IMG/VR virus record: IMGVR_UViG_3300021495_000002
Span: 1-64,000 of that record
Direction: 5' to 3' (one strand)
Source: a virus
DNA: 64,000 nucleotides
Below the pieces are notes generated by a model. That model searched no databases and had not been told where the DNA came from. It saw nothing but the letters and a program-made list of their open reading frames with translations. How positions within the stretch are numbered: the first letter of the stretch is position 1; every line of letters starts with the position of its first letter. Position numbers and translations under genes: made by a program. Shown piece after piece: positions 33,731 through 55,217 of the stretch.

Positions 33731-34724
33731 TCGGGATACAGATCCTTGGAAAGTAGGTGCTCCGAGTGGTGAAGACGAGAGTGATGAGTCTTCCAGAACT
33801 TTTAAGACTACACACGCGTTAGAGGTGGGTGGACCATCTCAAGAAGACTGGGAATTGTATTTGACAAGTCCTCCAGCATTTGCAGCAGTTGAAGCCGTCA
33901 CCTTTGCTGTTCTCTCTGCTGGTTTTGAAATTCATGGTGAGAGTGAGCAAATTAGGGAAAGATACACACGGCGCTTTGATAAAGTATTTCCAAAGCTTTA
34001 TTCTGTTATGCGAGACGCTTTAGTGTTTGGCGACAGTTATTCGAGAATCCTCTTCGGGAGGGATAACCATTTTACTGATATTGAAGTTTTATTTCCGCTC
34101 AATGTAGTAACTCAGAATGGTGATTACTTTGTACGAGAAGGTGGAAAGCTTGTTCGTGTAAAGAACATTTGGCACTTTCAAGCTATGGCTCGTACAGACT
34201 CATCTTTTGGCATATCTATGATAGGTGTAGCAAGACAACCTCTTAAATGGAAGAAGGAAATTGACGAGAGTGTCCACGAGGGTATTATCAGACACGGTTT
34301 TGCGAAATATCATATTCAGTGCCTTCCCGATAGACGAGGACTTTATCCTGATGAAAATAAGCTTAAGGAATTGGAGAGACAGTTTAGAAAAATTCACGTG
34401 GGTCATGAGTTTGTTTCGACAGACAAGGTTAAAATTGATCCAATTGACACATCTGGATTTCCAGCTCTCTTAGACTATCTGCAATATTACACAAGTCTTG
34501 CTGCGACCGGCTTAATGGTTCCGGCTGAGACACTTGGGCAGGGCATAGCAACTTCACAGTATGCAACTGCTAAGGTAAGGATGGAATTCTTCCTCAAGAA
34601 TACTATTCCTTATTTCCAGAGAGTCCTTGAATGTTCCATTAATGATAACCTTATGGGCGAAAGGGCTGAGGGAGCTATATTTAAACTGAATGAACCAAAA
34701 GAGATCTCATATAAGACAGGATGA
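33564..34724 (+). CDS. Putative portal protein (start uncertain)
   Basis: Position immediately after TerL. 386-aa ORF overlapping TerL by up to 167 nt. Alternative starts are ATG 33642 or the TTG/GTG at ~33672-33677, which sit behind GGGGAG. Confidence 0.5.
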   Translation: MVPKEEHMTTSWTRWLSPPWDSNDILMRKKLRIFGERLVENGRLIWRKVLGQLYGDRDTDPWKVGAPSGEDESDESSRTFKTTHALEVGGPSQEDWELYLTSPPAFAAVEAVTFAVLSAGFEIHGESEQIRERYTRRFDKVFPKLYSVMRDALVFGDSYSRILFGRDNHFTDIEVLFPLNVVTQNGDYFVREGGKLVRVKNIWHFQAMARTDSSFGISMIGVARQPLKWKKEIDESVHEGIIRHGFAKYHIQCLPDRRGLYPDENKLKELERQFRKIHVGHEFVSTDKVKIDPIDTSGFPALLDYLQYYTSLAATGLMVPAETLGQGIATSQYATAKVRMEFFLKNTIPYFQRVLECSINDNLMGERAEGAIFKLNEPKEISYKTG

Positions 34725-35152
34725 TTCACGATACATATTTTCCTTTAGGACGAGAGAAAAAGGACATATTTCACGATAGGATTTTAGTAGAGAGTGGGGA
34801 CATGTTATATGATTCCACATCTCAAGGTGTTCCCATTTTTATCCCTCCCAATGTTCTGAAAAACGCTCGTATCCCCAAGAAGTTACCATTTCAGATTTTT
34901 CACAATGGAAAGGAAGTTGGGGAAGTTAAAAATATTCGATGGGATGGTAGAGCACTTCGGGGAGATATTCATGTCTATCCCCAACATAATGAGGAGGTAG
35001 TTAGAGAGCTCTTGAGAGGAAATCATGGTTTGTCTGTGCGTTTCTCTTCTATTGATGAGGATTATAAAACTTATACATTGATTAAAGACTTGACGTTGGA
35101 GCATTTAGCTCTTGTTCCAGCTCCAGCGTCACCGTCTGCAAGAATAGTGTAA
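34721..35152 (+). CDS. Short prohead-protease-like protein (HK97 U35/S78-like)
   Basis: QIFHNGKEVGEVKNIRWDGRALRGDIHV and the C-terminal LEHLALVPAPASPSARIV resemble the H...G and SLV..PA..A blocks of HK97-type proteases. Sits between the portal gene and the first capsid paralog. Confidence 0.4.
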   Translation: MIHDTYFPLGREKKDIFHDRILVESGDMLYDSTSQGVPIFIPPNVLKNARIPKKLPFQIFHNGKEVGEVKNIRWDGRALRGDIHVYPQHNEEVVRELLRGNHGLSVRFSSIDEDYKTYTLIKDLTLEHLALVPAPASPSARIV

Positions 35153-35182
35153 AATTCTACGAAAGAGTTAAGGAGAAAAGAA

Positions 35183-36037
35183 ATGGGTGAATTAGCTGAT
35201 AGGTTAAAAGAATACGTCGCTAAGGTGCAGACCCACGAACTCAGTACGTCTGATGACATACGACGACTGACACAGAAAGCCTATTATAATGCTGTCATAG
35301 CTGGAGCTAAACGAAGGGAATTCATGAGGAAGATATTACCTGTTGTTAAAACAAGTTCGCATAGAGTGAGAGTATTCACGTCTAACGCAAACGGATACGC
35401 TTCAAAAGGAGCTTATAAAGGAGAACCTCCTATTTTCCATCCTAAATACACAAGCATTGATGCTGTAACCGAAAAAGCTTGGACTTTGCCCCTTGCTCCT
35501 AAAGAGTTAGTTGAAGACGCAGAATTCGATTTAATTGAAAACGAGGTTTCTCTCGCTGGCATGAGATTAGAGAATACTTTGAATCAGGATGCGATTTCTG
35601 CATTAATAGACAATGCAGAACATTCTCAAGTGTGTGACGGAACTTCTCCGGTTGTGGCAATTGGAAACGCTTGTGTGGACATTGCAGATTCTCAATTCAC
35701 ACCAACTCACATGATTGCTACTCCTCAGTTTTATAATGTGGCACTTACTACGTTTCAAACTCCACTCATGTATAATAAAAAACAGGGAGGTCTGCTTGAC
35801 ATGAGTCTGCTTGCCGTTATTTCAAATGGCGACGAGAATTGGGCGTGGGGGGATACCGGAGATGTTGGAGCGGTAATCTTGGATGCTGAAATGGCAGGAT
35901 TAATTCTCATGAAGGAAGATATAACGGTTAAGAAGTATTCTGATCCTCTTAATGATTTACGTGGTGCAATAGTAGAAATGAAATACAAAGTTGTAGTAAC
36001 AAAACCCAAGGCTATTTGTATAATTAAGCATGATTAG
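35183..36037 (+). CDS. HK97-fold major-capsid-protein paralog 1 (284 aa)
   Basis: Alignable by eye along its length with the 52541-53527 protein: KELVEDAEFDLIE/EELIEEEEFDVIE, FTPTHMIATPQ/FEPDTIVMTPD, YSDPLNDLRG/FEDPLNDLRN. Canonical TerL-portal-protease-MCP position. Confidence 0.65.
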   Translation: MGELADRLKEYVAKVQTHELSTSDDIRRLTQKAYYNAVIAGAKRREFMRKILPVVKTSSHRVRVFTSNANGYASKGAYKGEPPIFHPKYTSIDAVTEKAWTLPLAPKELVEDAEFDLIENEVSLAGMRLENTLNQDAISALIDNAEHSQVCDGTSPVVAIGNACVDIADSQFTPTHMIATPQFYNVALTTFQTPLMYNKKQGGLLDMSLLAVISNGDENWAWGDTGDVGAVILDAEMAGLILMKEDITVKKYSDPLNDLRGAIVEMKYKVVVTKPKAICIIKHD

Positions 36038-36046
36038 GAGAAGAAA

Positions 36047-36724
36047 ATGCGAACAATTGCTCTGTTAGTAACTCTTTTAGTGTTGTGTCTCGTTCCGCTT
36101 TCTCAAGCAGCCCTTTCCAGTGTGGTTACGCTTAACGCCACGGATGCGTCAGGGATAAATCATGAGTTGTATTACATTGATTTCCGAGAAGACTTGGATG
36201 AAGGGGTAATTTATAACTCACAGAGTACTGCTGATCGTGGAACTGTTTTATTCAAGCAAGAGGCTATGAGTACTGGAAATACCATGATGGTAGCTACAAA
36301 TTATACCTATTTTGAAGGATATGCTTTAATATCAGGTGCATCTTTAGTAGAGAATATGGGCGGAGTCAATGTTTACAATGCCAATTACTCATTAGGTGTG
36401 GTAGGTCTAAAGGGAACTTCCAGTTCCAAATTAGCTGTGGCTTCTGCTTCGAGTGTCTCTCCCTACGATGTGCAGTATCAGTACAGCGTTTCGGGAGCAA
36501 ATGGAGGCGCAGGGATTGGTGCTGCTGAGGTAAGTAACACAGGTAAGACCTATGCAAAAACAACAATAAGAGGTGCAAAACAATTTTCATTGTCTGGTGA
36601 GTTGAGTTGGTCAGTACCAAAACCTGCTGGAGGAATGGAAGTGCCAAGTACGGACATATCACATTTGTGTGTATGGGCTCAGGAGAGTCCTGCCTATCCC
36701 ATCTTTCCAGGAATAGGAGCGTGA
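36047..36724 (+). CDS. Secreted/surface protein with a signal peptide
   Basis: MRTIALLVTLLVLCLVPLSQAAL signal-like N terminus. G/S/A/V-rich mature part. Confidence 0.55.
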   Translation: MRTIALLVTLLVLCLVPLSQAALSSVVTLNATDASGINHELYYIDFREDLDEGVIYNSQSTADRGTVLFKQEAMSTGNTMMVATNYTYFEGYALISGASLVENMGGVNVYNANYSLGVVGLKGTSSSKLAVASASSVSPYDVQYQYSVSGANGGAGIGAAEVSNTGKTYAKTTIRGAKQFSLSGELSWSVPKPAGGMEVPSTDISHLCVWAQESPAYPIFPGIGA

Positions 36725-36725
36725 A

Positions 36726-37721
36726 ATGAAAACTCCTCTTTCCTCTATTTTTAATTTTGGAGCAATTCCCTCTCCTTGGGATAAAAGGGACGTTATATAC
36801 GCGGCTCTTACTTCAAAAGAGAAGCCGGAGGCATTTAGTCTTAAGGAATACCAAGGACCGGTAGTAGACCAGGGTTCTCGACAGATATGCGTTCCTTGTG
36901 CGTTGTGTGCAATTGCAGAGTCAAAACAATTTTACAATACTAATTTGTCTGAATGTTACATTTACAAGCGTCGTTCCCATAAGGGAGATGGCATGGTGCT
37001 GAGGAACGCTCTCAAAATTATGCAAAAGGAAGGCACTTGTCAAGAAATGTGTTTTCCGTTGTCTACGTGTCAAGAACGATGCAGTGAAAGCTCAATTAAA
37101 AAGAACGCCCTATCTTATAGGATAGGAGAATACCATAGAGTATTCAATGATATTACCGGTACGATGTATATTCATAAGCTACCAGTATTTGCAGCCGTTC
37201 CTGTGTATGATAATTGGTCCTATGATGCTCGTATACCAATGCCCTCTGGTGAATTCTTAGGTTTTCACGCTATTACGATTGTAGGATATAACCTCACAGA
37301 GAAATATTATGAATTCAAAAATTCCTGGGGAACAGAATGGGGGAATGGGGGATACGGGGTGTTGCCTTTAAACTATCCGATAGCTGAAGCATGGATAGTT
37401 GAGCCGAGACTTGGGAATGATTACGATGATTTGCTTCCTGATGACATAACAATTAAAAATACAATATGTGGCATGTCCATATTTGGGCTTGGTATCGAAC
37501 TCGAGATTACTGTTCCTTGGGACTGTATTGTAAGACCCAACTTCGGAATATTCCGATTTCCACGTATGCTTCATAAAGGCACGAATTCAGTGATGTTTAG
37601 ATTTCCATTTAAGAAAGGTTCACAGCCACTAAGTTTAACCTTTAAGCATAAGAATTCTTATATTAGAATGTCTGCTACTCTTTCTAATACCATTCAATTG
37701 AGTGAGTGGGAAAGAATTTGA
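36726..37721 (+). CDS. Papain-family (C1) cysteine peptidase with a C-terminal beta-rich extension
   Basis: DQGSRQICVPCALCA (Gln/Cys block), GFHAITIVGYN (His block) and KNSWGTEWGNGGYG (Asn-Ser-Trp block), in papain order. Confidence 0.8.
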   Translation: MKTPLSSIFNFGAIPSPWDKRDVIYAALTSKEKPEAFSLKEYQGPVVDQGSRQICVPCALCAIAESKQFYNTNLSECYIYKRRSHKGDGMVLRNALKIMQKEGTCQEMCFPLSTCQERCSESSIKKNALSYRIGEYHRVFNDITGTMYIHKLPVFAAVPVYDNWSYDARIPMPSGEFLGFHAITIVGYNLTEKYYEFKNSWGTEWGNGGYGVLPLNYPIAEAWIVEPRLGNDYDDLLPDDITIKNTICGMSIFGLGIELEITVPWDCIVRPNFGIFRFPRMLHKGTNSVMFRFPFKKGSQPLSLTFKHKNSYIRMSATLSNTIQLSEWERI

Positions 37722-37727
37722 ATTAGA

Positions 37728-40142
37728 ATGAGCTTACGAGTAACATTTCTCGGAGTAAATGCAGAAGCAAAGGGACATTCCTGTATATTAGTTGAGTCAT
37801 CCAAAGCGAGAATCCTCTTAGAGCCCACTCAGCGAGTTAGGGACGTTGATGCTGTTATAATCACGGATATAGACAGAGATGAATATAGCGAATGGAAATA
37901 TTATGCAGACCAAGGAATTCCTATATATTCGGTAGCAGCAATAAAGAGATGGGCAGAAGATGATGAACTTCGAGAGTCCATTCAAGTGATAAGCAACAAG
38001 TTCTCAATTAAGGGTCTCCACATGAATTGGCTAAAAGCTAACGTTGCTCCTCACGAACCAGCAGGCGGAGTTAGAATTCCAAGTTATGATGTAGATATAG
38101 TGCCTGAACTTCCAGCTTATATTCCTCAAGCTTTAATAAAGGCATTTGGATTGCCACCGTCCAATATTATAGTTGGCATTGGTTCTTATAAGAAATCAGA
38201 CCATAAAATATCGTTTGAGGATTTTCTTCTTCAGCTTGAGAAGACTCGAAGTGGTAAGGAAAAAGGTCTTTTATCTATTACCCTTACAAACTTCAGGAAG
38301 GATTTAAAAGAACATAAAAGTGAAGTTCTCAGAAGACTTAAAGAACGATGGGATATTCCCATCTTTTGGGCAGAAAAGGGCATGACGCTGGAATTTGCAA
38401 TAGATGGAGAAGTGATAAGAACAGATACCCTTCCTAAAGAAGACGAAAAGCTTCACTTCAAAGAATTCCTTTCCAAAGGAGTTGATTATGACATAAAGCA
38501 CGTCAAGACAAGATGGAAAGAGTGTATAGCAGATTTGCGATATTTGGCTAACAACGCCGTACCTCGCTTGAAAGCAGGAAAGAAGTGGGGTAAGTGGACT
38601 CTTGATGCGTGCTATAAATATTTTGCCGCTTTGATAGATGCTCTTCGTAGTGTGTATTTTGCACTCGTTCCCCCTACTCAACCTGAGCTATACAAAATAG
38701 AACATCCTAATAAAGATCCTAAAGAAGCACTTAAGACTTCTTTCTGGCAGACATACTTGAAGGCTAAGAAATACATGAAGTCCAAACCTCCCAAAGATGA
38801 GGAGGAATTAAAAGAGTGGAATAAGAAGCGAGCAAAAATAATAAGTGCATCTGAGGAAACGAAGAGCCTTAAAGTCGGATACCTTTCCAAGGCTAAACCA
38901 TATTTACGATTCTTCCTTCCTACTATTCATGAGGATATTGCGAGTGCTGGATGGGACGAAAAGAAGCTCCTTATCGATGTTAAAGCTGATGGTCTCAGAA
39001 TTACTCTTTGGAAGTCAGGCGGTAAAGGGTACGTGTTTGTGGATCCAGAAGAACTCAAACACAAGTCCCCATTAATAAACAAATATATTCCTCAGATAGT
39101 GAAAGAGATTGAAGAACGCTTCCCTGATAACACAGCTCTTGATGGGGAACTTTATGCAGCAAAAGGCAATGAAGCTTTACATAGAACCGTCATAAATGGA
39201 ATTATAAATACTAAGCTTCCTCCCGAAAGATTCATACCTTATGCGTACGCATTTGTATTCGATGTCCTTATTTATAAAGGGAATGATGTCCGAGATAAAC
39301 CTCTCGAAGAAAGGTTAAAACTGCTTCAGACTTTTAAGTCTACCGCACACATCAAAATAGAAAGAGTAAGCAAAGTTGCAATACCAAGCTATTCTGGATA
39401 CATAGTAGACGGGAATAACAAGAGTGCGATAGATAAAGCCATTCATTTGATAAAAACTTCAAAACACAGTCTCCATAAGGGATTGCAAGAGGGCGTCATG
39501 ATTAAAACTTTAGATCATTTCTATGAAGTTCCTACAAATAAAGGGGCAGCCAAATGTAAGTTTTGGCACGAAGTTGACACTGTGGTACTGGATAAGAAGT
39601 TGGTAAAAGGACAAACCGATGTGTGGAATTATTATCTGGGTATCGAAATACCAGCCGGATATGCTAAGATGATGCTTGATGACACTCAGGCGTATAAACG
39701 TGTTCGATGTTTGTATAATGGTCATCTTTATAAGAAGAAAGAGTGTCAAGATTATTTAGACAGACGAGGTACTCGATTCTTTATGGAATACGGAAAGTCG
39801 GATAACACAAAAATTAAGTGTGATGTTGGAGACGTTCTTAGAGTGTCCTCAGAAGAAGTCCTCTATAATGCAAATGAAACTCATCCAGAATACCCGTATT
39901 ATACAGGATACATAAATAGGGCGATGGAACCAGTACCAGAAAGAAAGACTTCTGATAATTTAGTCGTGTTGCATCGTCTTGCTTTACTTGAACCTCAACG
40001 GATACCCTTGGAAGTCTTAGCGAAATGGAAAGAAAGTATGCCTTCAGAGATAAAGAAGTATTGTGAATATATTAGGTCTTTACCCACTTCAAGACTAATT
40101 CAATTTTATAATGCACTGAAGAAGGTTCAAAATGAAGAGTGA
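37728..40142 (+). CDS. lig: ATP-dependent DNA ligase with a ~400-aa N-terminal extension
   Basis: Adenylation motif I DVKADGLRITLW (Lys at ~38982), motif III ALDGELYA, IIIa AFVFDVLIY, IV EGVMIKT and V KCKFWHEVDTVVL. Confidence 0.85.
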   Translation: MSLRVTFLGVNAEAKGHSCILVESSKARILLEPTQRVRDVDAVIITDIDRDEYSEWKYYADQGIPIYSVAAIKRWAEDDELRESIQVISNKFSIKGLHMNWLKANVAPHEPAGGVRIPSYDVDIVPELPAYIPQALIKAFGLPPSNIIVGIGSYKKSDHKISFEDFLLQLEKTRSGKEKGLLSITLTNFRKDLKEHKSEVLRRLKERWDIPIFWAEKGMTLEFAIDGEVIRTDTLPKEDEKLHFKEFLSKGVDYDIKHVKTRWKECIADLRYLANNAVPRLKAGKKWGKWTLDACYKYFAALIDALRSVYFALVPPTQPELYKIEHPNKDPKEALKTSFWQTYLKAKKYMKSKPPKDEEELKEWNKKRAKIISASEETKSLKVGYLSKAKPYLRFFLPTIHEDIASAGWDEKKLLIDVKADGLRITLWKSGGKGYVFVDPEELKHKSPLINKYIPQIVKEIEERFPDNTALDGELYAAKGNEALHRTVINGIINTKLPPERFIPYAYAFVFDVLIYKGNDVRDKPLEERLKLLQTFKSTAHIKIERVSKVAIPSYSGYIVDGNNKSAIDKAIHLIKTSKHSLHKGLQEGVMIKTLDHFYEVPTNKGAAKCKFWHEVDTVVLDKKLVKGQTDVWNYYLGIEIPAGYAKMMLDDTQAYKRVRCLYNGHLYKKKECQDYLDRRGTRFFMEYGKSDNTKIKCDVGDVLRVSSEEVLYNANETHPEYPYYTGYINRAMEPVPERKTSDNLVVLHRLALLEPQRIPLEVLAKWKESMPSEIKKYCEYIRSLPTSRLIQFYNALKKVQNEE

Positions 40143-42177: not shown

Positions 42178-42206
42178 TTTTAGTTTAATACTCTTATTTC
42201 AGTAAC

Positions 42207-46380: not shown

Positions 46381-46403
46381 TTAAAACGAAATAGGTGACT
46401 GAT

Positions 46404-46913: not shown

Positions 46914-46918
46914 GCGAA

Positions 46919-47233
46919 ATGGTGCTAATTCCAGATCGTTGTTATAAACAGCCAAACGAAAAGGAGTATCTTCGGATTGATTTCTCCTCACGATTAGCAT
47001 CAAAGGAATTTATTACGGGGATACAAAAGTGTAGATGTTACAATTCAAATGGCGATGACGTAACAAGTGATATAATAGAAGATCCAGATTACGATGAGAC
47101 TTCAGTGAAATTTTGGTTTAAAGATGGAACGTCTGGAAGTACCTACAATTTGACCGTACGAGTGGAAACAAACAAAGGAGCCGTGTTAGAAGAAGATTTA
47201 ATCTTAGTGGTTGAGGAGATTGGGCATGATTAA
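46919..47233 (+). CDS. Hypothetical virion-associated protein
   Basis: Start taken at MVLIPDRCYK, just after the upstream stop. Pattern EYLRIDFSSRL...GSTYNLTVRVETNKGAVLEEDLILVV resembles small fibre-associated phage proteins. Confidence 0.45.
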   Translation: MVLIPDRCYKQPNEKEYLRIDFSSRLASKEFITGIQKCRCYNSNGDDVTSDIIEDPDYDETSVKFWFKDGTSGSTYNLTVRVETNKGAVLEEDLILVVEEIGHD

Positions 47234-47447
47234 CGCCAAAGAATTTCTATCCACTTATGCAGAACTCCACTCGTTCATCATGGGAATTTACGCGGGACTT
47301 ACAGAGTGGCGTGGTATAGATTCAAACATTTTGAATAATCCCGACGTCAGGAAAGAACCTCATTACTGCTATGGTGGTTACGTCTTTGGCACTCTACTTA
47401 GATGGATTATAATTCTTTCTGTGGGCTACAAGTTCTTCTTGGGCTAA
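47211..47447 (+). CDS. Small protein with a C-terminal TM segment (holin-like by size only)
   Basis: 78 aa with the hydrophobic stretch GGYVFGTLLRWIIILSVGYKFFLG. Confidence 0.35.
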   Translation: MRRLGMINAKEFLSTYAELHSFIMGIYAGLTEWRGIDSNILNNPDVRKEPHYCYGGYVFGTLLRWIIILSVGYKFFLG

Positions 47448-47457
47448 TACTTCTATT
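47445..47457 (+). promoter_or_regulatory. Late intergenic motif TAATACTTCTATT (copy 2)
   Basis: One mismatch. Begins at the stop codon of 47211-47447, 25 nt upstream of the GT2 gene. Confidence 0.45.
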
Positions 47458-47481
47458 ATTCTTTAATTTAGGTGGTGCAAT

Positions 47482-48264
47482 ATGCAATTTTCAATAATAG
47501 TTGCAACAAATCGTGGACCCGAACTTCTAAAATATCTATTTGTTTCTGCACATCCGGAGAGTGAACTCATAATAGTTGACTCTCACTATAATGAAAAAAC
47601 AAAAGACTTTCTCTCTCGCCAAGAGGGATATAGACAGATAGTCTACGCTCCACCTGAGCGTTCACCTTTTAGATGGCATAGAGACTTTTCTCAGTCTCTT
47701 AATACAGCACTATGTCTTGCTGAGCATGAATATATTGTACGTGCAGACGACTACATAGAATTCAAGGAGGACTTCTTTGACGTTGCTGAAAAGGACGTTA
47801 AGAGCTATCCAGAGAAGACTCTTATAATAGGACAGAAAGCACAAGAGTATAACAAGGAAGAAAAGTTCATTGACTACATGTCCCAAAGAGGAATAGGTGG
47901 AGAATTTAGATATGTAAACATTGAGAACCCAGCGTTCACATTCTCCTTTGGAGTAGCACCTCTTCAGTTGTACCTTGACCTTAATGGCTATGATGAAAGG
48001 TACGATTCTGGTTGGGGTTTTGAAGACAGAGACTTTCTTCACAGAGCACTAAAGGCTGGTTATGTTGCAATGCTCGATAAGCTTCTTATGGGATATGGTC
48101 ATGCTCACAAGCCAGCTTGGGAAACAATTTCGATGCCTCACATAATTTATGAGGTAACAAAGACAGAAATAGAGGGTGGCAAAGTTTGGGCTTATAATCC
48201 TTACAAACTCAAGGATAGACGGGAACAGAAATTGCAGGAGAAAGAGAAATGGATAGTAAGATAA
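47482..48264 (+). CDS. GT2-family glycosyltransferase
   Basis: FSIIVATNRGPELL, ELIIVDSHYNEKT, VRADDYIEF and GWGFEDRDFLHRA are typical GT-A blocks. Confidence 0.7.
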   Translation: MQFSIIVATNRGPELLKYLFVSAHPESELIIVDSHYNEKTKDFLSRQEGYRQIVYAPPERSPFRWHRDFSQSLNTALCLAEHEYIVRADDYIEFKEDFFDVAEKDVKSYPEKTLIIGQKAQEYNKEEKFIDYMSQRGIGGEFRYVNIENPAFTFSFGVAPLQLYLDLNGYDERYDSGWGFEDRDFLHRALKAGYVAMLDKLLMGYGHAHKPAWETISMPHIIYEVTKTEIEGGKVWAYNPYKLKDRREQKLQEKEKWIVR

Positions 48265-49187
48265 GCATGATTCAGATACAGACCACGAGTGTATGTCCAG
48301 GAAGGTGCATCATTTGTCCTTACAAAGACAGTTGGCTACGAAAGGCTCATGGTTATATGAGTGATGAAGATTACGTTCACGTCTTAGAAGAGATTAAGTC
48401 CTATCTTGGTGATTACAAAGAAAAGCTTCCACTTTACTTGATGAATGATCCATTTGCGGACAGGAAAATTATTGAGCGAATGGAATTAGCTTATCAGTAT
48501 TTTCCCAAATGCAAATTGGAGTTGTCCACCAATGGTTTGCTCCTCACCGAAAAGCTATCCAAGAAAATAGTGGAAACTGTGACTCATTATAATGGTGAAG
48601 ACACGTTTGAACTCTGGATTTCTTTTCATGGAGCAAGTAGGCAGACATGGGAATTCCTAAATAATTTGCCCGGTAAATTTGATAGAGTCCTTAAGAATAT
48701 CATCACGTATCTTAAGATAAACAATGGTCAACTCAAAACAGTCATTAACTCAGCGGGAGGAGCATCTCGTGATGGTTCTATGTTCTTTTATTCCCAGAGT
48801 GCTTGGAAACAATTCCTAAACTCTATATTTCAAACTTATAACCTTCCATTGGAGAACGTTCATTTTCGATACTATGCCTTTCACAACAGAGCTGGAAATG
48901 TAAGACTGTGTAATTGGGATGGAACAGAGTACTATCGAGAAATAGGTCCCGAGTATCCCTTTGATTGTTGGCGATTCAGGAGTGGCATTCATATTCTTTA
49001 CGATCTGGACGTAATTCTCTGTTGTATGGATTGGAAAAAAGAAACTGTCCTTGGAAACCTTAAGGAGCGAACTCTCAAAGAAATATGGGAGAGTGAAAAA
49101 CGACGTACTTTTGTTGATATGGCATCTGGTAGAAAACCTTCTCCTAAAGACTTTATATGTAAGAGGTGCATGTCGCCAGGCGGGTGA
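48249..49187 (+). CDS. Radical SAM enzyme with a SPASM/twitch-like Cys-rich C terminus
   Basis: CX3CX2C cluster TSVCPGRCIICPY. C-terminal CWRF...LCCMDW...CKRC. Alternative start at ATG 48267. Confidence 0.75.
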   Translation: MDSKISMIQIQTTSVCPGRCIICPYKDSWLRKAHGYMSDEDYVHVLEEIKSYLGDYKEKLPLYLMNDPFADRKIIERMELAYQYFPKCKLELSTNGLLLTEKLSKKIVETVTHYNGEDTFELWISFHGASRQTWEFLNNLPGKFDRVLKNIITYLKINNGQLKTVINSAGGASRDGSMFFYSQSAWKQFLNSIFQTYNLPLENVHFRYYAFHNRAGNVRLCNWDGTEYYREIGPEYPFDCWRFRSGIHILYDLDVILCCMDWKKETVLGNLKERTLKEIWESEKRRTFVDMASGRKPSPKDFICKRCMSPGG

Positions 49188-49192
49188 GTATT

Positions 49193-50095
49193 ATGGATAA
49201 CGTAACAGCGATTGTGAAAACCTTTATGCGTCCTGAAAAATTCGAGTTGTGTTTGAGAAGCTTAGTGTCTGCTGGACTCAAGAAAATTATTGTCTCTTTT
49301 GATGGTCCCGAAGAGTACCTCGAAAGGCATAGAAGAGTAATAGGCAAGTATCAAAGAAATGTAACTATTCGTTTCTTAGAGCTTCCCTTCAATGTAGGAC
49401 TCGCAGCCGCAAGAAATAGAATGATAGAAAAAGTGAATACAGAGTTCATCTTGATGATTGATGATGATAATTACGTTCCGCTTCAAGTCTTAGAGATGGT
49501 ACATGGATTATCGCAACTTCCTGAAGATGTAGGGGGAGTAGCTATGGGATGGCTGCCAGCTTTTAATCCTCTTCCACAGATGGATGCTTGGGACTTCGAG
49601 ATAGTAAACAGGATACTCTTTAAGACATGGCGAAGTGATAAGCAACGTGCAATTATTAATGGTAACGCTTATATGTTTCCTTTTGATTTTATTCCTAATC
49701 AAGTTCTCTTCAGACGAAAGCTCTTTAATGATGTGCAGTGGGATGAACATTATATCATAAGCAGGGAACATGAGGACTTTTATCTGACATGCAAGAAAGA
49801 AACAGATTGGAAGTTTGGAATATGCACATCCATGTACTCCGTACATGATCCGGGTGGAAGCAAAGAGTACATACGTGAGTATCGAGCAGGAAAGGAATGC
49901 GATAAATCTGCCGAATATTTTCTTAAGAAGTGGGACCTGAGAGGCATTGCTCCTCAAAGGTATAGCGATGATTATACTTCGCTGTTTTATGATGCCCCTT
50001 GGCAAGTAAGACGAAACCTTGATAAGAATAGGTATATAAGATGGAAGTTGGAGACGAATCAGGCTTTGCCTGATGACGTCTTCCAAACCCGTTGA
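49193..50095 (+). CDS. GT2-family glycosyltransferase
   Basis: VTAIVKTFMRPEKFELCLRSL, GLAAARNRMIE and FILMIDDDNYV (DxD). ATG 49193 preferred over the GTG at 49166. Confidence 0.7.
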   Translation: MDNVTAIVKTFMRPEKFELCLRSLVSAGLKKIIVSFDGPEEYLERHRRVIGKYQRNVTIRFLELPFNVGLAAARNRMIEKVNTEFILMIDDDNYVPLQVLEMVHGLSQLPEDVGGVAMGWLPAFNPLPQMDAWDFEIVNRILFKTWRSDKQRAIINGNAYMFPFDFIPNQVLFRRKLFNDVQWDEHYIISREHEDFYLTCKKETDWKFGICTSMYSVHDPGGSKEYIREYRAGKECDKSAEYFLKKWDLRGIAPQRYSDDYTSLFYDAPWQVRRNLDKNRYIRWKLETNQALPDDVFQTR

Positions 50096-50097
50096 GT

Positions 50098-51009
50098 ATG
50101 TTGGATAAAGAGGAAATAAAAAATTTAACAAAGAAAAGTATGGAGAAGGCTTACCTCCCAGTGCCTTCTCATGGGGGACTCAAGACTGCAAAGTTTACTC
50201 TTGAGGACGTCCAAAGGTGTTTCAGGCAGCCTGCTCTTCTTCGAGACCTCGTGTATTTGGTTGGAGGAGTAGCAGTTCATGGCAAAGGCAATGATGTTGA
50301 CTTAGTGATACGTGGAGATGATTTATCGGAACCTCAACGTGAAGCTCTTTTGTTTCGTCTTTATCGAGCATTTGGTGATTACTTCAATATTCCTTACGAT
50401 ATGACACCTAAGCATTTACACGTAACCTTCAACAATTATGGTCCTTTTACAGACCACGTTCTCTTATATCACTTAGCAATTGTTCCTTCTGAAGACCGAA
50501 GTATCCACGAAATGGAAGCCATGAAGTCCGTATCCTCCAATGGTGAATGGATAGTTTATGGTTATGGTTCGATAGACGCAATTGACCTTGAAGGTGATGA
50601 AATAACCATTGATGCTCTCAAAGGCATGTGGGAGGAAATGCAAAAGACCCCGAAGAAGTACTGGAATGTCATGAATGAACATGGTGGTGTACAAGTAGGA
50701 GAAATCCTCCCAGAGTGGAATGGGCTCAAAACTCACGTTGACGAAAAAGGGTTCTTTGTAATAGTGAAGCTCCGTAAGGATATAGACGCAGCACGAAGGA
50801 TATGGGAAGCAATTCATTCTGACAATGAAGCAGAACGTATCAAGAGTTTCTCAATTCACATTGAGTATCCTGGAGGTGTGCAAAATTGTACAGAAAAGGT
50901 TTGTGACAAAAACAGATGCTGGCGTAAGATAACCAAGGCAAGATTCCTTGAGTTGAGTTTCACAAGAAATCCTGCTAATCCGTTATGTATTTTTAAACCC
51001 GCGTTCTAA
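50098..51009 (+). CDS. HK97-type prohead protease (U35/S78) with an N-terminal Pol-beta nucleotidyltransferase-like segment
   Basis: Protease blocks IVYGYGSIDAIDLEGDEITIDAL, NVMNEHGGVQVGEIL, DEKGFFVIVKL and ELSFTRNPANP. The N-terminal VYLVGGVAVHGKGNDVDLVI fits G[GS]-x(8-13)-D-x-D. Confidence 0.7.
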   Translation: MLDKEEIKNLTKKSMEKAYLPVPSHGGLKTAKFTLEDVQRCFRQPALLRDLVYLVGGVAVHGKGNDVDLVIRGDDLSEPQREALLFRLYRAFGDYFNIPYDMTPKHLHVTFNNYGPFTDHVLLYHLAIVPSEDRSIHEMEAMKSVSSNGEWIVYGYGSIDAIDLEGDEITIDALKGMWEEMQKTPKKYWNVMNEHGGVQVGEILPEWNGLKTHVDEKGFFVIVKLRKDIDAARRIWEAIHSDNEAERIKSFSIHIEYPGGVQNCTEKVCDKNRCWRKITKARFLELSFTRNPANPLCIFKPAF

Positions 51010-51039
51010 CTCTAACATTTAAAATTAAAGGTGAGCGAG

Positions 51040-51285
51040 ATGCAAGAGCTTTATATAGGAGAGAAACCTTATGACAATTATTTAAGGGCACTTGGAGATT
51101 CCGAGAGTGTTAGCGTGTTAGCAAGGGGCAAGAATATTAAGAAGGCAATAGATGTAGCACTCATGGCTCAGAGGCTAAGTCAGTTTGAAATTAGGAATGT
51201 AGTCCTTTACGATGAAAAGATGACAAGTGACGATGGAGAACGTGAATATTATGTTAGTGCCATAAGGATAGACTTGAGTCGCTAA
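51040..51285 (+). CDS. alba: Alba-family DNA/RNA-binding protein
   Basis: LYIGEKPYDNYLRALGD...SVLARGKNIKKAIDVALMAQRL...YVSAIRIDLSR follows the Alba pattern (I.IG.KP.M.Y......ARG.AI..AVDVAE......VS.IEI.L). ATG 51040 behind AGGTGA. Confidence 0.65.
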   Translation: MQELYIGEKPYDNYLRALGDSESVSVLARGKNIKKAIDVALMAQRLSQFEIRNVVLYDEKMTSDDGEREYYVSAIRIDLSR

Positions 51286-51314
51286 TTATATTATAGAATA
51301 TAGAGGAATTGAAA

Positions 51315-51926
51315 ATGGCAACTCAAGAAGAGGAGTTTGAGGAATTCTTTAAAGAATTGGAAGAGTCAATGAAAGAGGACACAGAGAACGAGGAAGAGAA
51401 GTCAGAGGAGGAACCAACTGAGGATGAAAGTGAGGGCGAGAAAGCTCTCACAAAGGCAGACGTAATTAAGATAGTCAGGGATGAAATAAAGACGTTCTGG
51501 AAGGGTGTCTTAAAGGGCAAGTATCCACTTCCAAAGTATCCCTACGCCAAGTATCCTTACGCAAAGTATCCTGCTCCGAGTTCCAAGAAAAGTTTAGATG
51601 ATGGCGACTTCGTACCAATGTATCCCGCATTTGTGGTGGTTCCACAGATGCAAATGCAGACAGATAATACAAAGGGTGAAAGCGTGAAGACCGAAACAAC
51701 CGAACAGAAGAATACACAGACAGATGACACAAAGAAAGACACGAAAGATGACGTGATTGAAGAGCAGAAGTCTCAGATAGAGGAACTCAAAAAGACAGTA
51801 GAGGATCTTCAGAAGAAACTCGAAGAGATTAGTGCTCAACCAGCTCCTGAGAAAGAGGAAGGTGAAGCTAAACCTGATTACGTCCCAGACGTCCTAATTG
51901 ATGGTGACACAATATCTCGACCCTAA
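51315..51926 (+). CDS. Putative scaffolding protein
   Basis: Acidic, coiled-coil-prone, low-complexity protein between the protease and capsid genes. Contains KYPLP-KYPYA-KYPYA-KYPAP, encoded by 4 x 15-nt tandem repeats (51519-51578). Confidence 0.5.
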   Translation: MATQEEEFEEFFKELEESMKEDTENEEEKSEEEPTEDESEGEKALTKADVIKIVRDEIKTFWKGVLKGKYPLPKYPYAKYPYAKYPAPSSKKSLDDGDFVPMYPAFVVVPQMQMQTDNTKGESVKTETTEQKNTQTDDTKKDTKDDVIEEQKSQIEELKKTVEDLQKKLEEISAQPAPEKEEGEAKPDYVPDVLIDGDTISRP

Positions 51927-52049: not shown

Positions 52050-52062
52050 GTGCATCTGGTAA
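52050..52062 (+). promoter_or_regulatory. Late intergenic motif TAACATTTCTATT (copy 3), followed by TTTAAAAG
   Basis: One mismatch. Lies in the 174-nt spacer upstream of the decoration/capsid genes. Confidence 0.45.
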
Positions 52063-52100
52063 CATTTCTATTTAAAAGTTTGAAATGAGGTAAATTAAAA

Positions 52101-52505
52101 ATGGCTGAAGTTGAAGATGTGGTTGCTGGTGCACCAGTCATAGTGACATTCTTGGCTGGTGCAGACATTGAGGCAGGGCAGGTGGTAGGCTATGATGTGA
52201 GTGCTTCTCCTGATGATATGACCGTTGCTCCTGCACTTCAGGATGGGTATGACACGATACCTGTTGGTGTCGCAGTAGATTCAGTAGCGGAGGATGACCC
52301 CGTGCCAGTGGCTATTCCGCCCTCGATAGTGAGGGTAAGAGCATCAAGTAATGTAACTGCTGGTCAGTTGGTACAGCTCAATGAGAGTGACGCAGGTCAG
52401 GTTGAACCTTACAACTCGGGTGATAACACTTGGGCATTGGGTCAGGCATTAGAGGATATAACTGCAGACTCGACTGGTAGAGTGAGGTTACTCCTCACAA
52501 AATAA
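52101..52505 (+). CDS. Head decoration/cement protein (DUF2190-like)
   Basis: 134 aa, Ala/Gly/Val-rich: AGQVVGYD...GVAVDSVAEDD...VTAGQLVQL...ALGQALEDI...GRVRLLL. Lies immediately upstream of the capsid gene. Confidence 0.5.
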   Translation: MAEVEDVVAGAPVIVTFLAGADIEAGQVVGYDVSASPDDMTVAPALQDGYDTIPVGVAVDSVAEDDPVPVAIPPSIVRVRASSNVTAGQLVQLNESDAGQVEPYNSGDNTWALGQALEDITADSTGRVRLLLTK

Positions 52506-52540
52506 ATACCTCTATATTAAATTAAAAGAAGGTAAGAAAA

Positions 52541-53527
52541 ATGGGTGATTTTGCAAACTTACTCCGGATTGTTAAGGCTGGTGATGATGCTAATCAGAAA
52601 AGCTACTGGATGAAAAGACTCAGTAAGGGTACTCACGAATTGATGCAGGCTTACAACGTGACTGCTGAGCACCTTGTTCGAGAGGAATTATACAAAGAGG
52701 TGCTCCGTGGCGCTGAGGAAGTGCTCTGTATGAGAGAGGTTCTCCCAATTTACAGAATGAAGAGGAATGAACTCAGGTTCGTTCTCACAGATGCTCCAAC
52801 TGGTATGCTTCCACTTGTAGCACCTGGTTCAAGCCTTCCTGAGGGTCCAGACGTCAAGTTCAAGAGTGATGTTACATTTGTGGCTCAGAAATATGGTGAG
52901 AAAGTTGGTATCCCAGAGGAACTCATAGAGGAGGAAGAGTTCGATGTGATAGAGCTATTAGTTCACAATGAAGGTCGTCGAGCGGAGAACCGACTAAATG
53001 ACGTAGCAATGAAGGCGCTATTAAACGCAAAGAGCAGTGTGGAGAGTACAGACAATGTTTCGATAATAGACAGGATAGTGGCAATGGTAAAGAAAATGCG
53101 AAAGAACAAGTTTGAACCAGATACCATCGTAATGACTCCAGACGCGGAGGCAGAGATACTCAAGTACATGGTGGGTGAAACAAAAGTAGCAAATACAACT
53201 GGCGAGGCTGGTTATGGCAAAACTGGTGTTCCAGAGGTATTCAGGACCAAAGAGATAGGCAGACCAATAGTTGGTCTTAAGCCATACGTGTTGTCAAAGG
53301 AGGTGGCTGGTGATTCCCTGAGTTGGGGTGGTGATGATACCAATGCACACATCTGCATCCTTGATAGAAGGATGGCGGGTGGTATTGGTATGAGAAGCGA
53401 TATAGCAATAAAGAGGTTCGAGGACCCACTTAACGACTTGAGAAACCTGAAGATTACTATGAGAATATGTGCAGAGACATTCTTTGCTAACGCAATTGAA
53501 CTGGGTGACATAGCGAGCCTCTTGTAA
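52541..53527 (+). CDS. HK97-fold major capsid protein (paralog 2, 328 aa)
   Basis: Position after protease/scaffold/decoration genes. FEPDTIVMTPDAEAEIL and the C-terminal ILDRRMAGGIGMRSDIAIKRFEDPLNDLRN blocks. Paralogous to 35183-36037. Confidence 0.75.
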   Translation: MGDFANLLRIVKAGDDANQKSYWMKRLSKGTHELMQAYNVTAEHLVREELYKEVLRGAEEVLCMREVLPIYRMKRNELRFVLTDAPTGMLPLVAPGSSLPEGPDVKFKSDVTFVAQKYGEKVGIPEELIEEEEFDVIELLVHNEGRRAENRLNDVAMKALLNAKSSVESTDNVSIIDRIVAMVKKMRKNKFEPDTIVMTPDAEAEILKYMVGETKVANTTGEAGYGKTGVPEVFRTKEIGRPIVGLKPYVLSKEVAGDSLSWGGDDTNAHICILDRRMAGGIGMRSDIAIKRFEDPLNDLRNLKITMRICAETFFANAIELGDIASLL

Positions 53528-55200: not shown

Positions 55201-55217
55201 ATTAGGGAGGACATTAA

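What the first reader, a model, noticed from the sequence alone, without database searches (positions are those of the whole stretch)
34721..53527. Two divergent HK97-fold capsid-protein paralogs, each preceded by its own prohead-protease-like gene, about 14 kb apart
35183-36037 (284 aa) and 52541-53527 (328 aa) align by eye from the first residues (MGELADRLK / MGDFANLLR) through to the end:
- KELVEDAEFDLIENEV..RLENTLNQDAISALIDNA vs EELIEEEEFDVIELLV..RAENRLNDVAMKALLNA
- FTPTHMIATPQ vs FEPDTIVMTPD
- AVILDAEMAGLILMKEDITVKKYSDPLNDLRG vs CILDRRMAGGIGMRSDIAIKRFEDPLNDLRN

The first paralog sits in the classic TerL-portal-protease-MCP order, behind a short protease-like gene (34721-35152, ending LALVPAPASPSARIV). 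The second sits behind a full-length HK97-type protease (ending LSFTRNPANP), followed by Alba, scaffold and decoration genes.

The known precedent for two capsid paralogs is T4 gp23/gp24, a hexon and a vertex protein. I am not aware of a duplicated protease+MCP unit split by ligase, fibre and glycosylation genes. Possibilities are a dedicated penton protein, two capsid morphotypes, or a co-opted encapsulin-like shell.
Basis: partly seen in the sequence, partly recalled or inferred. Interest (0 to 1): 0.75.

Follow-up and report, generated by a model that had tools for sequence, protein, structure and literature searches.

The report
Two capsid genes in ANME-1 virus
This head-tailed archaeal virus really does carry two diverged capsid-protein genes, each next to its own maturation protease, but the arrangement was already published in 2023 as the hallmark of the Ekchuahviridae (viruses of methane-oxidising ANME-1 archaea); what the second capsid protein does is still unknown.

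Summary
35183-36037 (MCP-A, 284 aa) and 52541-53527 (MCP-B, 328 aa) are homologous (28% identity, E 2e-20; profile comparison 99.7%). Both family profiles match the solved HK97-fold capsid protein of Haloferax tailed virus 1. The AlphaFold model of MCP-A (pLDDT 81) has that protein as its best PDB match.

MCP-B follows a Pfam-supported S78 prohead protease, an Alba-like gene, a scaffold-like protein and a cement protein. MCP-A follows TerL, portal and a 143-aa protein. That protein is a very diverged S78 protease: its ortholog in a distant relative passes the Pfam S78 cut-off, and the predicted catalytic serine is invariant.

A chimeric assembly is excluded, because independent contigs of 72, 82 and 131 kb carry both genes.

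The feature is not new. Laso-Pérez et al. [quoted passage not shown] GBV301 shares the whole module with this window.

New here:
- Both genes are under purifying selection.
- MCP-B has the strongest codon bias.
- MCP-A has a reduced, fast-diverging A-domain.
- An 88-kb relative has the two units in tandem.

My best guess, which is inferred and not shown, is a major shell protein (B) plus a minor vertex protein (A).

The parts
32105..33730 (+). Large terminase subunit (TerL), with an N-terminal zinc-finger-like extension
   Evidence: phrog_2 terminase large subunit E 7.8e-29; Pfam Terminase_6C E 7.8e-6
33564..34724 (+). Portal protein. The true start is probably an internal ATG, as in relatives whose ORF is 360 aa.
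   Evidence: Pfam Phage_portal E 5.2e-9 (36.2 bits, just under the 39.1 cut-off) and phrog_9232; 77% identical to the GBV301 ortholog; 360-aa versions in relatives
34721..35152 (+). Protease A: a short (143 aa), highly diverged HK97/S78-type prohead serine protease domain. Predicted catalytic His61 and Ser105; C-terminal LALVPAPASP motif.
   Evidence: No direct Pfam or PHROG hit. Family alignment A3 (8 sequences) has invariant H61 and S105. hhalign against the S78 domain family of protease B: 62% probability, E 7.5e-5, His and Ser aligned. phrog_80 head maturation protease in 3 of 8 members, best E 0.018. The L049 ortholog (A3 HMM E 5e-9) passes the Pfam Peptidase_S78 cut-off at 23.9 bits against 21. 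The AF2 model failed (pLDDT 42).
35183..36037 (+). MCP-A: HK97-fold capsid protein, 284 aa, with a reduced A-domain and no delta domain
   Evidence: Family profile against PDB: HFTV1 MCP 8qpq, E 1.5e-22. AF2 pLDDT 81, pTM 0.81. Foldseek top hit HFTV1 MCP 5.9e-15, then HK97 gp5 and others. dN/dS 0.11-0.16.
35615..35863 (+). A-domain segment of MCP-A (aa 145-227), a fast-diverging cassette among close relatives
   Evidence: dN about 0.32-0.37 against 0.02-0.05 in the flanks. dS is also about 3 times higher. dN/dS 0.16-0.25. Alignment; secondary structure.
36047..50095 (+). About 14 kb separating the two units. Contents: secreted protein, papain-like C1 peptidase, ATP-dependent DNA ligase, Hint-containing protein, DUF2341/BNR fibre, Gp77 adaptor, glycosyltransferases, radical-SAM/SPASM enzyme.
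   Evidence: Pfam hits. The same ligase-to-fibre-to-Gp77 order follows MCP-A in relatives.
50092..51009 (+). Protease B: an N-terminal domain of about 140 aa with unknown function, plus an S78 prohead serine protease domain (aa about 145-301)
   Evidence: Pfam Peptidase_S78 22.2 bits against cut-off 21. 417 representative proteins at E<=1e-3, many sharing both domains. 88% identical to GBV301.
51031..51285 (+). Alba-like small nucleic-acid-binding protein inside the head module
   Evidence: Pfam Alba E 5.5e-5 (23.3 bits, under the cut-off of 25). Homologous to the L049 protein, which hits Alba at 1.1e-12.
51309..51926 (+). Acidic, coiled-coil scaffold-like protein
   Evidence: Only weak PHROG hits, including phrog_73 head scaffolding E 0.021. 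Assigned from position and composition. 59% identical to GBV301.
52101..52505 (+). Capsid cement/decoration protein, a homolog of halovirus capsid stabilisation proteins
   Evidence: Pfam Phage_cement_2 E 9.8e-8, above cut-off. BLASTP to HRTV-4 gp38 E 5e-5 and to the HFTV1 gp18 capsid stabilisation protein E 0.016.
52541..53527 (+). MCP-B: HK97-fold capsid protein, 328 aa, probably the abundant shell protein
   Evidence: Family profile against the HFTV1 MCP, E 1.4e-10. Pfam Phage_capsid_4 E 1.3e-5 (26.1 bits, cut-off 27). PF25209 precomputed on all 16 homologs. dN/dS 0.02-0.07. Lowest Nc (43.9) of the genes longer than 300 aa and second-highest GC3 (0.448) of the 29 structural-arm genes.
53930..62166 (+). 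Downstream connector and tail genes, ending in the tape-measure protein (56692-62166)
   Evidence: PhageMin_Tail E 6.2e-20 for the 1824-aa ORF. The smaller ORFs have no Pfam hit and are assigned by position only.

Best explanation
Identity. The window is the genome, or most of it, of an ekchuahvirus (family Ekchuahviridae, order Nakonvirales). These are head-tailed dsDNA viruses of ANME-1/Methanophagales archaea from Guaymas-type hydrothermal sediment. The stretch 34.7-53.5 kb lies in its structural arm and holds two diverged but genuine HK97-fold major-capsid-protein genes:
- MCP-A follows TerL, portal and a minimal S78 protease.
- MCP-B follows a two-domain S78 protease, an Alba-like gene, a scaffold-like protein and a cement protein.
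This is the published hallmark of the family, not a new discovery. I hold this part at about 0.9.

Mechanism. This part is inferred and not shown; I hold the specific vertex role at about 0.35-0.4.
- Both proteins are made and are recruited into one procapsid, probably through their shared N-terminal helix (MG[ED][LF]A..L).
- MCP-B is the abundant shell protein. It forms hexamers, uses the scaffold, and is clamped by the cement protein.
- MCP-A is a minor, specialised capsomer with a smaller and rapidly diverging A-domain. It most likely forms the pentameric vertices, as gp24 does beside gp23 in T4.
- Each protease is packaged with, and trims, its own partner.

Origin. The pair is old. It predates the split between the 72-82 kb ekchuahviruses and a 131-kb relative. 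In a more distant 88-kb virus the two protease+MCP units sit about 3.7 kb apart, start to start. The 14-kb spacer here therefore looks like a later insertion into an originally tandem module.
For: Homology and fold.

Published description of the same feature: PMC9894754. The paper's supplement maps GBV301 to IMGVR_UViG_3300021472_000001.

That contig carries both units:
- portal (77% identity), protease A (80%), MCP-A (57%);
- protease B (88%), Alba (83%), scaffold (59%), cement (87%), MCP-B (87%).

Independent assemblies carrying both MCPs:
- IMGVR_UViG_3300033156_000439 (81.8 kb; about 90% nt identity over window 26.8-63.4 kb).
- ENA scaffold_39 (130.9 kb; MCP-A 38%, MCP-B 59%).

Both genes are under purifying selection.

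MCP-B has the lowest Nc among the genes longer than 300 aa (43.9, against 48.1 for MCP-A).

The N-terminal motif is shared by the A, B, x and y clades.

MCP-A lacks about 45 A-domain residues that are present in MCP-B and in the HFTV1 MCP.

Tandem arrangement in L049, with both proteases passing the Pfam S78 cut-off and both MCPs passing Pfam capsid cut-offs.
Against: Nothing here shows that either protein is in the virion, nor in what ratio. No multimer modelling, proteomics or expression data were available.

Codon bias is a weak proxy for expression.

In T4 one protease serves both gp23 and gp24, so a second protease is not explained by the penton model.

MCP-A has only about 25 residues ahead of the N-arm helix, so it is unclear what protease A would cleave.

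In L068 (155-kb contig) a protease-A-like gene sits next to the portal with no second MCP detectable before protease B. Protease A may therefore serve something other than MCP-A.

My crude NJ tree does not resolve whether A and B arose by duplication or by capture. The 2023 paper argues that one copy came from haloferuviruses.
Confidence: 0.8

Rival explanations
1. Co-assembly in some way other than hexon and penton. Examples: mixed capsomers, a special ring of MCP-A capsomers around the portal vertex, or MCP-A capsomers that anchor a head fibre or turret.
For: MCP-A and protease A are always encoded immediately after the portal. The N-terminal motif is shared. The A-domain, which forms the capsomer centre and is where HFTV1 hexamers anchor turrets (PMC12494034), is the variable part of MCP-A. 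A large fibre gene lies between the two units.
Against: No precedent is known to me for HK97-fold hetero-capsomers. In HFTV1 a small portal-interface protein, not a second MCP, solves the portal mismatch. The N-terminal 105 aa of the fibre are conserved while the MCP-A A-domain varies, so there is no obvious co-variation.
Confidence: 0.2
2. Only one of the two capsid proteins builds the virion. The other unit is a captured or redundant module that is retained for another purpose or as a back-up. Some dual-MCP rod-shaped archaeal viruses use only one copy.
For: The 2023 paper notes that dual-MCP rod-shaped viruses may use one copy, and argues that one ekchuahvirus MCP was horizontally acquired. 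MCP-A evolves several-fold faster than MCP-B. L068 seems to keep a protease-A-like gene without a second MCP.
Against: MCP-A has dN/dS of 0.11-0.16 and is retained, with its protease, from 93% down to 38% identity, in genomes of 72 to 131 kb. A dispensable gene would be lost in a virus. In my tree both copies fall in the same clade, away from the halovirus MCPs.
Confidence: 0.12
3. The two units build two different shells: two capsid sizes or morphotypes, or a separate encapsulin-like compartment made of MCP-A.
For: Each MCP has its own protease, as expected for self-contained assembly units. Encapsulins appear among the Foldseek hits for MCP-A (ranks 20, 25 and later, E about 1e-9).
Against: There is only one TerL, one portal, one scaffold-like protein, one cement protein and one set of connector and tail genes (also stated). 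Virus MCPs outrank encapsulins, and the best match is a virion MCP. Encapsulins, as far as I know, have no prohead protease. The N-terminal motif shared with MCP-B suggests a common assembly partner. In L049 the two units are interleaved in one compact head operon.
Confidence: 0.07
4. Assembly artefact: the contig is a chimera of two related viruses, each contributing one head module.
For: MCP-B is 100% identical to IMGVR_UViG_3300033156_000439 while MCP-A is only 84% identical to it, which is a mosaic pattern.
Against: Four independent contigs from different samples carry both genes in the same order. There is no composition break. The mosaic is confined to the A-domain cassette inside MCP-A. 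The 2023 paper excluded an artefact using the circular alignment of two assemblies.
Confidence: 0.01

Closest known systems
Ekchuahviridae (genus Kukulkanvirus: Methanophagales viruses GBV301 and GBV302), Laso-Pérez et al. 2023, PMC9894754
   Same: Same feature: two divergent HK97-fold MCPs, each with its own maturation protease, and all other morphogenesis genes single-copy. The genome splits into a structural arm and an enzymatic arm, and the source is Guaymas-type sediment. GBV301 shares both units gene for gene at 57-88% amino-acid identity.
   Different: The window is not identical to any contig I could reach. The nearest is about 90% nt identical. It may be GBV302 itself, whose contig never appeared in any collection, but I could not check that. 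Relative to GBV301, MCP-A is much more diverged (57%) than its neighbours (77-88%).
Bacteriophage T4 gp23 (hexamer MCP) and gp24 (vertex protein)
   Same: Two diverged HK97-fold paralogs in one head module. This is the only well-established case, to my knowledge, of a dedicated penton paralog in tailed viruses, and the 2023 paper cites it as the analogy.
   Different: In T4 the genes are adjacent and share one protease (gp21) and one scaffold. Here each has its own S78 protease and the genes are 14 kb apart (tandem only in L049). There is no evidence yet that MCP-A sits at the vertices.
Haloferax tailed virus 1 (Haloferuviridae) head module: gp17 protease/scaffold, gp18 capsid stabilisation protein, gp19 MCP (PDB 8QPQ, 8QSY, 9GS0)
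   Same: It is the closest solved structure to both MCPs. The order protease-scaffold-cement-MCP matches the MCP-B unit. The cement protein is homologous to halovirus capsid stabilisation proteins, more clearly to HRTV-4 gp38 (E 5e-5) than to HFTV1 gp18 (E 0.016).
   Different: HFTV1 has a single MCP that forms both pentamers and hexamers in a T=7 capsid. Its MCP carries an N-terminal extension of about 100 aa that both window proteins lack. Identity is only 22-24%.
Uncultured 88-kb virus contig Ga0272441_10000518 (locus L049)
   Same: It also has two S78 proteases and two HK97 MCPs. A short protease sits next to the portal, and a long protease/scaffold plus cement protein precede the second MCP. 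An Alba gene lies in the head module.
   Different: The two units are in tandem (MCP genes about 3.7 kb apart, start to start) with no ligase, fibre or glycosylation insert. Its MCPs are only 24-29% identical to the window's, and their orthology to A and B is unresolved.

Membership tests
HK97-fold major capsid protein (Duplodnaviria) | Significant sequence or profile match to a capsid protein of solved HK97 fold | tested here: met
   A1 profile (MCP-A family) against the HFTV1 MCP 8qpq, E 1.5e-22. A2 profile (MCP-B family), E 1.4e-10.
HK97-fold major capsid protein (Duplodnaviria) | Predicted three-dimensional fold: N-arm, E-loop, spine helix in the P-domain, A-domain | tested here: met
   MCP-A only: AF2 pLDDT 81, pTM 0.81, with a 30-residue spine helix and an E-loop hairpin. 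There are 345 PDB matches at E<=1e-3; the 50 listed are HK97-fold capsid or encapsulin shell proteins. It is linked by the 99.7% profile match to MCP-A.
HK97-fold major capsid protein (Duplodnaviria) | Encoded in a head-morphogenesis module with terminase, portal and protease | tested here: met
Peptidase S78 (HK97-type prohead serine protease) | Pfam PF04586 match above the gathering score | tested here: met
   Protease B (50092-51009): 22.2 bits against a cut-off of 21. Family members reach 58 bits.
Peptidase S78 (HK97-type prohead serine protease) | The same Pfam match, for protease A (34721-35152) | tested here: inconclusive
   There is no direct hit. Transitive link: the L049 ortholog (A3 HMM E 5e-9) scores 23.9 bits against a cut-off of 21. 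hhalign to the S78 family gives 62%, E 7.5e-5. phrog_80 best E 0.018. The AF2 model is unusable, and its Foldseek top hit, T4 gp21, at E 0.04 is not significant.
Peptidase S78 (HK97-type prohead serine protease) | Conserved catalytic His and Ser | tested here: met
   H61 and S105 are invariant in 8 protease-A family members. Ser105 is invariant across the A-type and B-type proteases. His and Ser align with those of the S78 family in hhalign. Catalytic activity itself was not tested.
Ekchuahviridae (Nakonvirales) | Two divergent HK97 MCPs, each with its own maturation protease, and other morphogenesis genes single-copy | tested here: met
Ekchuahviridae (Nakonvirales) | Orthology and synteny with the type genome GBV301 | tested here: met
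   Eight genes at 57-88% amino-acid identity, in the same order, on IMGVR_UViG_3300021472_000001. A whole-proteome tree (the paper's criterion) was not computed.
Ekchuahviridae (Nakonvirales) | ANME-1 host, assigned by CRISPR spacer matches | not tested
   No spacer database was available. Homologs come from Guaymas-type metagenomes and from bins mislabelled as Micrarchaeota, Chloroflexi and Methanosarcinales.
T4-type hexon/penton capsid (gp23/gp24) | One paralog located exclusively at the five-fold vertices | not testable with these tools
   This needs multimer modelling, proteomics or cryo-EM. Only indirect hints are available: codon bias and the smaller A-domain.
T4-type hexon/penton capsid (gp23/gp24) | One shared protease and scaffold for both paralogs | tested here: not met
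   There are two S78-type proteases, one beside each MCP. There is a single scaffold-like gene.
Encapsulin nanocompartment | HK97-fold shell gene in a cellular operon with cargo protein(s), and no portal, terminase or protease | tested here: not met
   MCP-A lies directly after TerL, portal and a protease in a virus genome. Encapsulins rank below virion MCPs in Foldseek.

The most novel reading that the evidence does not exclude
MCP-A is a dedicated vertex (penton) protein that brings its own minimal S78 protease, and MCP-B forms the hexamers. The two-unit head module would then be ancient and originally tandem (as in the 88-kb contig L049), later split by a 14-kb insert. This would be the first dedicated penton paralog in an archaeal virus, and the first outside T4-like phages. 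The fast-changing A-domain of the vertex protein would hint at selection on the exposed five-fold surface.
Probability: 0.35. Interest if true: 0.6.

Novelty: already known. Interest (0 to 1): 0.3.

Why it matters
Tailed viruses almost always build pentamers and hexamers from a single capsid protein. A lineage that has kept two, each with its own protease, over deep divergence asks what a second HK97 protein adds: vertex specialisation, capsid-size control, or an anchoring platform.

The observation itself has been in the literature since 2023, so its value as a discovery is low. What this analysis adds:
- Both copies are under purifying selection.
- The likely major and minor roles can be guessed from codon bias and domain size.
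- The portal-side 143-aa gene is tied to the S78 protease family through an intermediate sequence.
- The arrangement extends beyond the named family, in tandem form.

These points give concrete, testable predictions for anyone who can express the module or obtain metaproteomes from ANME-1 enrichments.

Tried and rejected
1. Megablast of 32-54 kb against the phage collection found no match. Accessions OP880252, OP880253 and OP413838 are not held. I therefore could not test identity with GBV302, nor see which MCP type the single-MCP sister family Ahpuchviridae keeps.

Its Foldseek list is headed by T4 gp21 and herpesvirus proteases, but at E >= 0.04, so I do not count it as evidence.

3. The protease-A family profile found nothing in PDB sequences. 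Direct BLASTP of protease A against protease B also found nothing.

4. Stop-codon read-through fusion of protease A to MCP-A. In the window the two are in the same frame, separated by one TAA and 10 codons. In L017 and L020 the frames differ, so I rejected this.

5. Co-variation between the variable MCP-A A-domain and the variable fibre. The N-terminus of the fibre is conserved where the A-domain differs, so I did not pursue it.

6. Horizontal transfer of one copy from haloferuviruses, as the paper argues. In my bit-score matrix and NJ tree, A and B both sit with uncultured 'y' MCPs, away from HFTV1 and HRTV-4. Support is low (53%) and the method is crude, so this is neither confirmed nor rejected.

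7. tRNA scan found none.

8. Looking for a second MCP in L068 found none before protease B. The rest of that 155-kb contig was out of reach.

Full report
**1. The observation**

MCP-A (35183-36037, 284 aa) and MCP-B (52541-53527, 328 aa) align over about 279 residues at 28% identity, E 2e-20. I collected homologs of each protein: 25 for MCP-A and 16 for MCP-B. The two family profiles match each other with 99.7% probability, E 3.9e-26.

The gene neighbourhoods are as described:
- TerL 32105-33730 and portal 33564-34724 lie upstream of a 143-aa ORF and MCP-A.
- Upstream of MCP-B lie an S78 protease domain (50092-51009, just above the Pfam cut-off), an Alba-like ORF (just below the cut-off), an acidic coiled-coil scaffold-like protein, and a Phage_cement_2 protein.

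The 14.05 kb between the two units encodes a papain-like peptidase, an ATP-dependent DNA ligase, a Hint-containing protein, a 1387-aa DUF2341/BNR fibre, a Gp77-type adaptor, glycosyltransferases and a radical-SAM/SPASM enzyme.

**2. Are both proteins HK97-fold capsid proteins?**

Yes. The MCP-A family profile hits the solved major capsid protein of Haloferax tailed virus 1 (PDB 8QPQ, 8QSY, 9GS0) at E 1.5e-22. The MCP-B family profile hits the same protein at 1.4e-10.

An AlphaFold2 model of MCP-A, built on a merged 27-sequence alignment, reached pLDDT 81 and pTM 0.81. It shows the expected N-arm helix, E-loop hairpin, 30-residue spine helix and A-domain helices. Its best PDB matches are the HFTV1 MCP (5.9e-15), then HK97 gp5, actinophage MCPs, a gene-transfer-agent capsid and, lower down, encapsulins.

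Relative to MCP-B and the HFTV1 MCP, MCP-A lacks about 45 residues of the A-domain. Both window proteins lack the roughly 100-residue N-terminal extension of the HFTV1 MCP.

**3. Is the 143-aa gene a protease?**

Probably, but the evidence is indirect.

Against: it has no Pfam or PHROG hit of its own, no BLASTP similarity to protease B, nothing in PDB sequences, and its AlphaFold model failed (pLDDT 42).

For:
- Orthologs collected by synteny from six other contigs (54-90% identity) keep His61, Ser105 and the C-terminal LVP.PA motif invariant.
- hhalign against a 121-sequence alignment of the S78 domain of protease-B relatives gives 62% probability, E 7.5e-5, with the His and Ser aligned.
- Three of eight members touch phrog_80 'head maturation protease' (best E 0.018).
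- Most tellingly, a more distant ortholog in locus L049 matches the family HMM at 5e-9 and itself passes the Pfam Peptidase_S78 gathering score, 23.9 bits against 21.
- In a joint alignment of A-type and B-type proteases the serine is invariant.

I therefore accept 'short S78-type prohead protease' at roughly 0.8. Protease B is not simply 'full-length'. It is an S78 domain (aa about 145-301) preceded by a conserved domain of about 140 aa with no Pfam match, which many relatives share.

**4. Is it an assembly artefact?**

No. Four lines of evidence:
- IMGVR_UViG_3300033156_000439 (81.8 kb, a different sample) carries MCP-A (84% aa identity) and MCP-B (100%) 17.7 kb apart, start to start. It is about 90% nt identical to the window from 26.8 to 63.4 kb.
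- GBV301's contig (71.9 kb) carries both genes.
- A 130.9-kb ENA scaffold carries far more diverged copies (38% and 59%) in the same relative order.
- GC content shows no step between the modules.

**5. What it is**

The full-text search led to Laso-Pérez et al. 2023 (PMC9894754). [quoted passage not shown] The paper's supplement identifies GBV301 as IMGVR_UViG_3300021472_000001. On that contig I found, in order:
- portal (77%), protease A (80%), MCP-A (57%);
- about 15 kb downstream, protease B (88%), Alba (83%), scaffold (59%), cement (87%), MCP-B (87%).

The window also shows the paper's split into an enzymatic arm and a structural arm. Genes up to about 24 kb are on the minus strand and encode methylases, a RecA/KaiC-like ATPase, an AAA ATPase with a VWA/metallopeptidase partner, and an amidotransferase. 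From about 27.6 kb onward the genes are on the plus strand and are structural.

The window is therefore an ekchuahvirus, and the finding is a rediscovery of the family's defining feature. GBV302's own contig never surfaced in any collection, which would fit the window being GBV302 itself, but I could not verify this.

**6. What can be added about how it works**

(a) Both genes are functional. Against close relatives, dN/dS is 0.11-0.16 for MCP-A and 0.00-0.07 for MCP-B.

(b) MCP-A evolves much faster, and almost all of the change is in the A-domain (aa 145-227). There dN is about ten times the flanks and dS is also about three times higher, while dN/dS stays at 0.16-0.25. This looks like exchange of a diverged cassette rather than simple positive selection.

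(c) MCP-B has the lowest effective number of codons among the genes longer than 300 aa (Nc 43.9) and the second-highest GC3 (0.448) of the 29 structural-arm genes. MCP-A is average (Nc 48.1, GC3 0.324). This fits MCP-B being the abundant protein.

(d) The two proteins, and their relatives in other lineages, share an N-terminal helix motif (M[GS].[LF][AT]..L...). This suggests the same assembly partner, and hence co-assembly in one procapsid.

(e) There is only one scaffold-like gene, one cement gene, one portal and one terminase.

Together these points favour one capsid in which MCP-B is the bulk (hexamer) protein and MCP-A is a minor specialised capsomer. By analogy with T4 gp24, the eleven non-portal vertices are the most economical guess. 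The retention of both genes in genomes from 72 to 131 kb, which implies different T numbers, fits a role that does not depend on T number. This is inference. I put the vertex model at about 0.35-0.4.

Points that do not fit neatly:
- T4 needs only one protease.
- MCP-A has almost nothing ahead of its N-arm to be cleaved.
- In L068 (155-kb contig) a protease-A-like gene sits by the portal with no second MCP detectable before protease B.

**7. Wider distribution and origin**

A metagenome scan with the merged alignment recovered more distant relatives. Locus L049 (88-kb contig Ga0272441_10000518) has the gene order TerL, Alba, portal, short S78 protease, a 118-aa ORF, MCP-x, two small ORFs, S78 protease/scaffold, cement, MCP-y, connectors. 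Both proteases and both MCPs pass Pfam cut-offs.

The dual unit is therefore not confined to the named family. In this lineage it is in tandem, which suggests that the 14-kb ligase, fibre and glycosylation block of ekchuahviruses was inserted into an older tandem module.

In an all-against-all bit-score matrix and a bootstrapped NJ tree, A and B are each monophyletic (100%). They cluster with the x and y proteins (53%), away from the HFTV1 and HRTV-4 group. The branching order among A, B, x and y is unresolved. So 'paralogs' is a fair word in the loose sense. I find no support for the paper's suggestion that one copy came from haloferuviruses, but my method is too crude to contradict a maximum-likelihood analysis with broader sampling.

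**8. Verdict**

- Observation: confirmed.
- Interpretation: correct on what the genes are, wrong on the lack of precedent.
- Novelty: already known.
- Interest: modest (0.3), because the function of the second capsid protein remains an open, testable question, and because the tandem relative and the selection and codon-bias data sharpen it.

Noticed in passing
window 35615-35863 (MCP-A aa 145-227): Among close relatives the A-domain of MCP-A is a hypervariable cassette. Both dN and dS are several-fold higher than in the nearly invariant N- and C-terminal parts of the same gene. This suggests recombinational exchange of this segment between lineages.
   Followed up: partly
L049 (Ga0272441_10000518, 88,015 bp), locus 2075-10825: A more distant virus has the two protease+MCP units in tandem: portal, short S78 protease, MCP, S78 protease/scaffold, cement, MCP. 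There is no 14-kb insert, and a bona fide Alba gene (E 1.1e-12) sits between TerL and the portal.
   Followed up: partly
L068 (Ga0209287_10000007, 154,999 bp), locus 443-10822: A protease-A-like gene sits next to the portal and is followed by a 1557-aa protein with no Pfam hit. No second MCP is detectable before protease B, two cement paralogs and the MCP. This may be a lineage with two proteases but one MCP, or the second MCP may lie elsewhere on the contig.
   Followed up: partly
window 50092-50520 (protease B aa 1-140): The N-terminal domain of protease B is conserved and has no Pfam match. It contains a GxG...DVDLV motif that, by eye, resembles nucleotidyltransferase-fold proteins. Roughly two dozen representative proteins share it, some of about 550 aa.
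   Followed up: no
window 51031-51285: An Alba-like chromatin protein gene is embedded in the head module between the protease and the scaffold. It is conserved in GBV301 (83%) and present in the head module of L049. It may be a packaged DNA-binding protein.
   Followed up: partly
window about 32943 and about 39548; L001 2110-4761 and 8759-12193: Relative L001 has in-frame insertions of about 1 kb in TerL (883 aa against 541 aa) and in the DNA ligase (1144 aa against 804 aa). The ligase insertion has weak Intein_splicing and Hint_2 hits. This looks like an intein presence/absence polymorphism between close relatives.
   Followed up: partly
window 40132-42177: A 681-aa protein of unknown function carries an internal Hint/intein-like segment (PT-HINT and Intein_splicing hits, aa about 250-450). 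It is conserved downstream of the ligase in relatives (L020, L046).
   Followed up: no
window 42523-45189 (inside the fibre gene 42207-46370): The central BNR/sialidase-like part of the 1387-aa DUF2341 fibre drops to about 70% identity or becomes unalignable among relatives that are otherwise about 90% identical. The N-terminal 105 aa and the C-terminal repeat region stay conserved. This is probably the host-recognition module.
   Followed up: no
window 36047-37721: A signal-peptide protein (225 aa) and a papain-family C1 cysteine peptidase (331 aa) sit between MCP-A and the ligase. In L020, L013 and L017 the ligase (preceded by an HNH gene in L017) follows MCP-A directly, so these two genes are absent there. 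They may be a lysis or envelope-degrading cassette.
   Followed up: no
window 29790-31666 and 47482-50095: Several glycosyltransferases and a radical-SAM/SPASM enzyme are scattered through the structural arm, which hints at virion glycosylation or another modification.
   Followed up: no
window 32105-32270 (TerL aa 9-56): TerL carries an N-terminal cysteine-rich zinc-finger-like extension, with weak TRASH, YHS and zf-FCS hits. This is unusual for a large terminase.
   Followed up: no
window 26000-28000: The GC and AT skew change sign, and the cumulative skew reaches its minimum, where the coding strand switches from minus (enzymatic arm) to plus (structural arm). No ORF of at least 150 aa lies between 24.1 and 27.6 kb. 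This may be an origin or a divergent promoter region.
   Followed up: no
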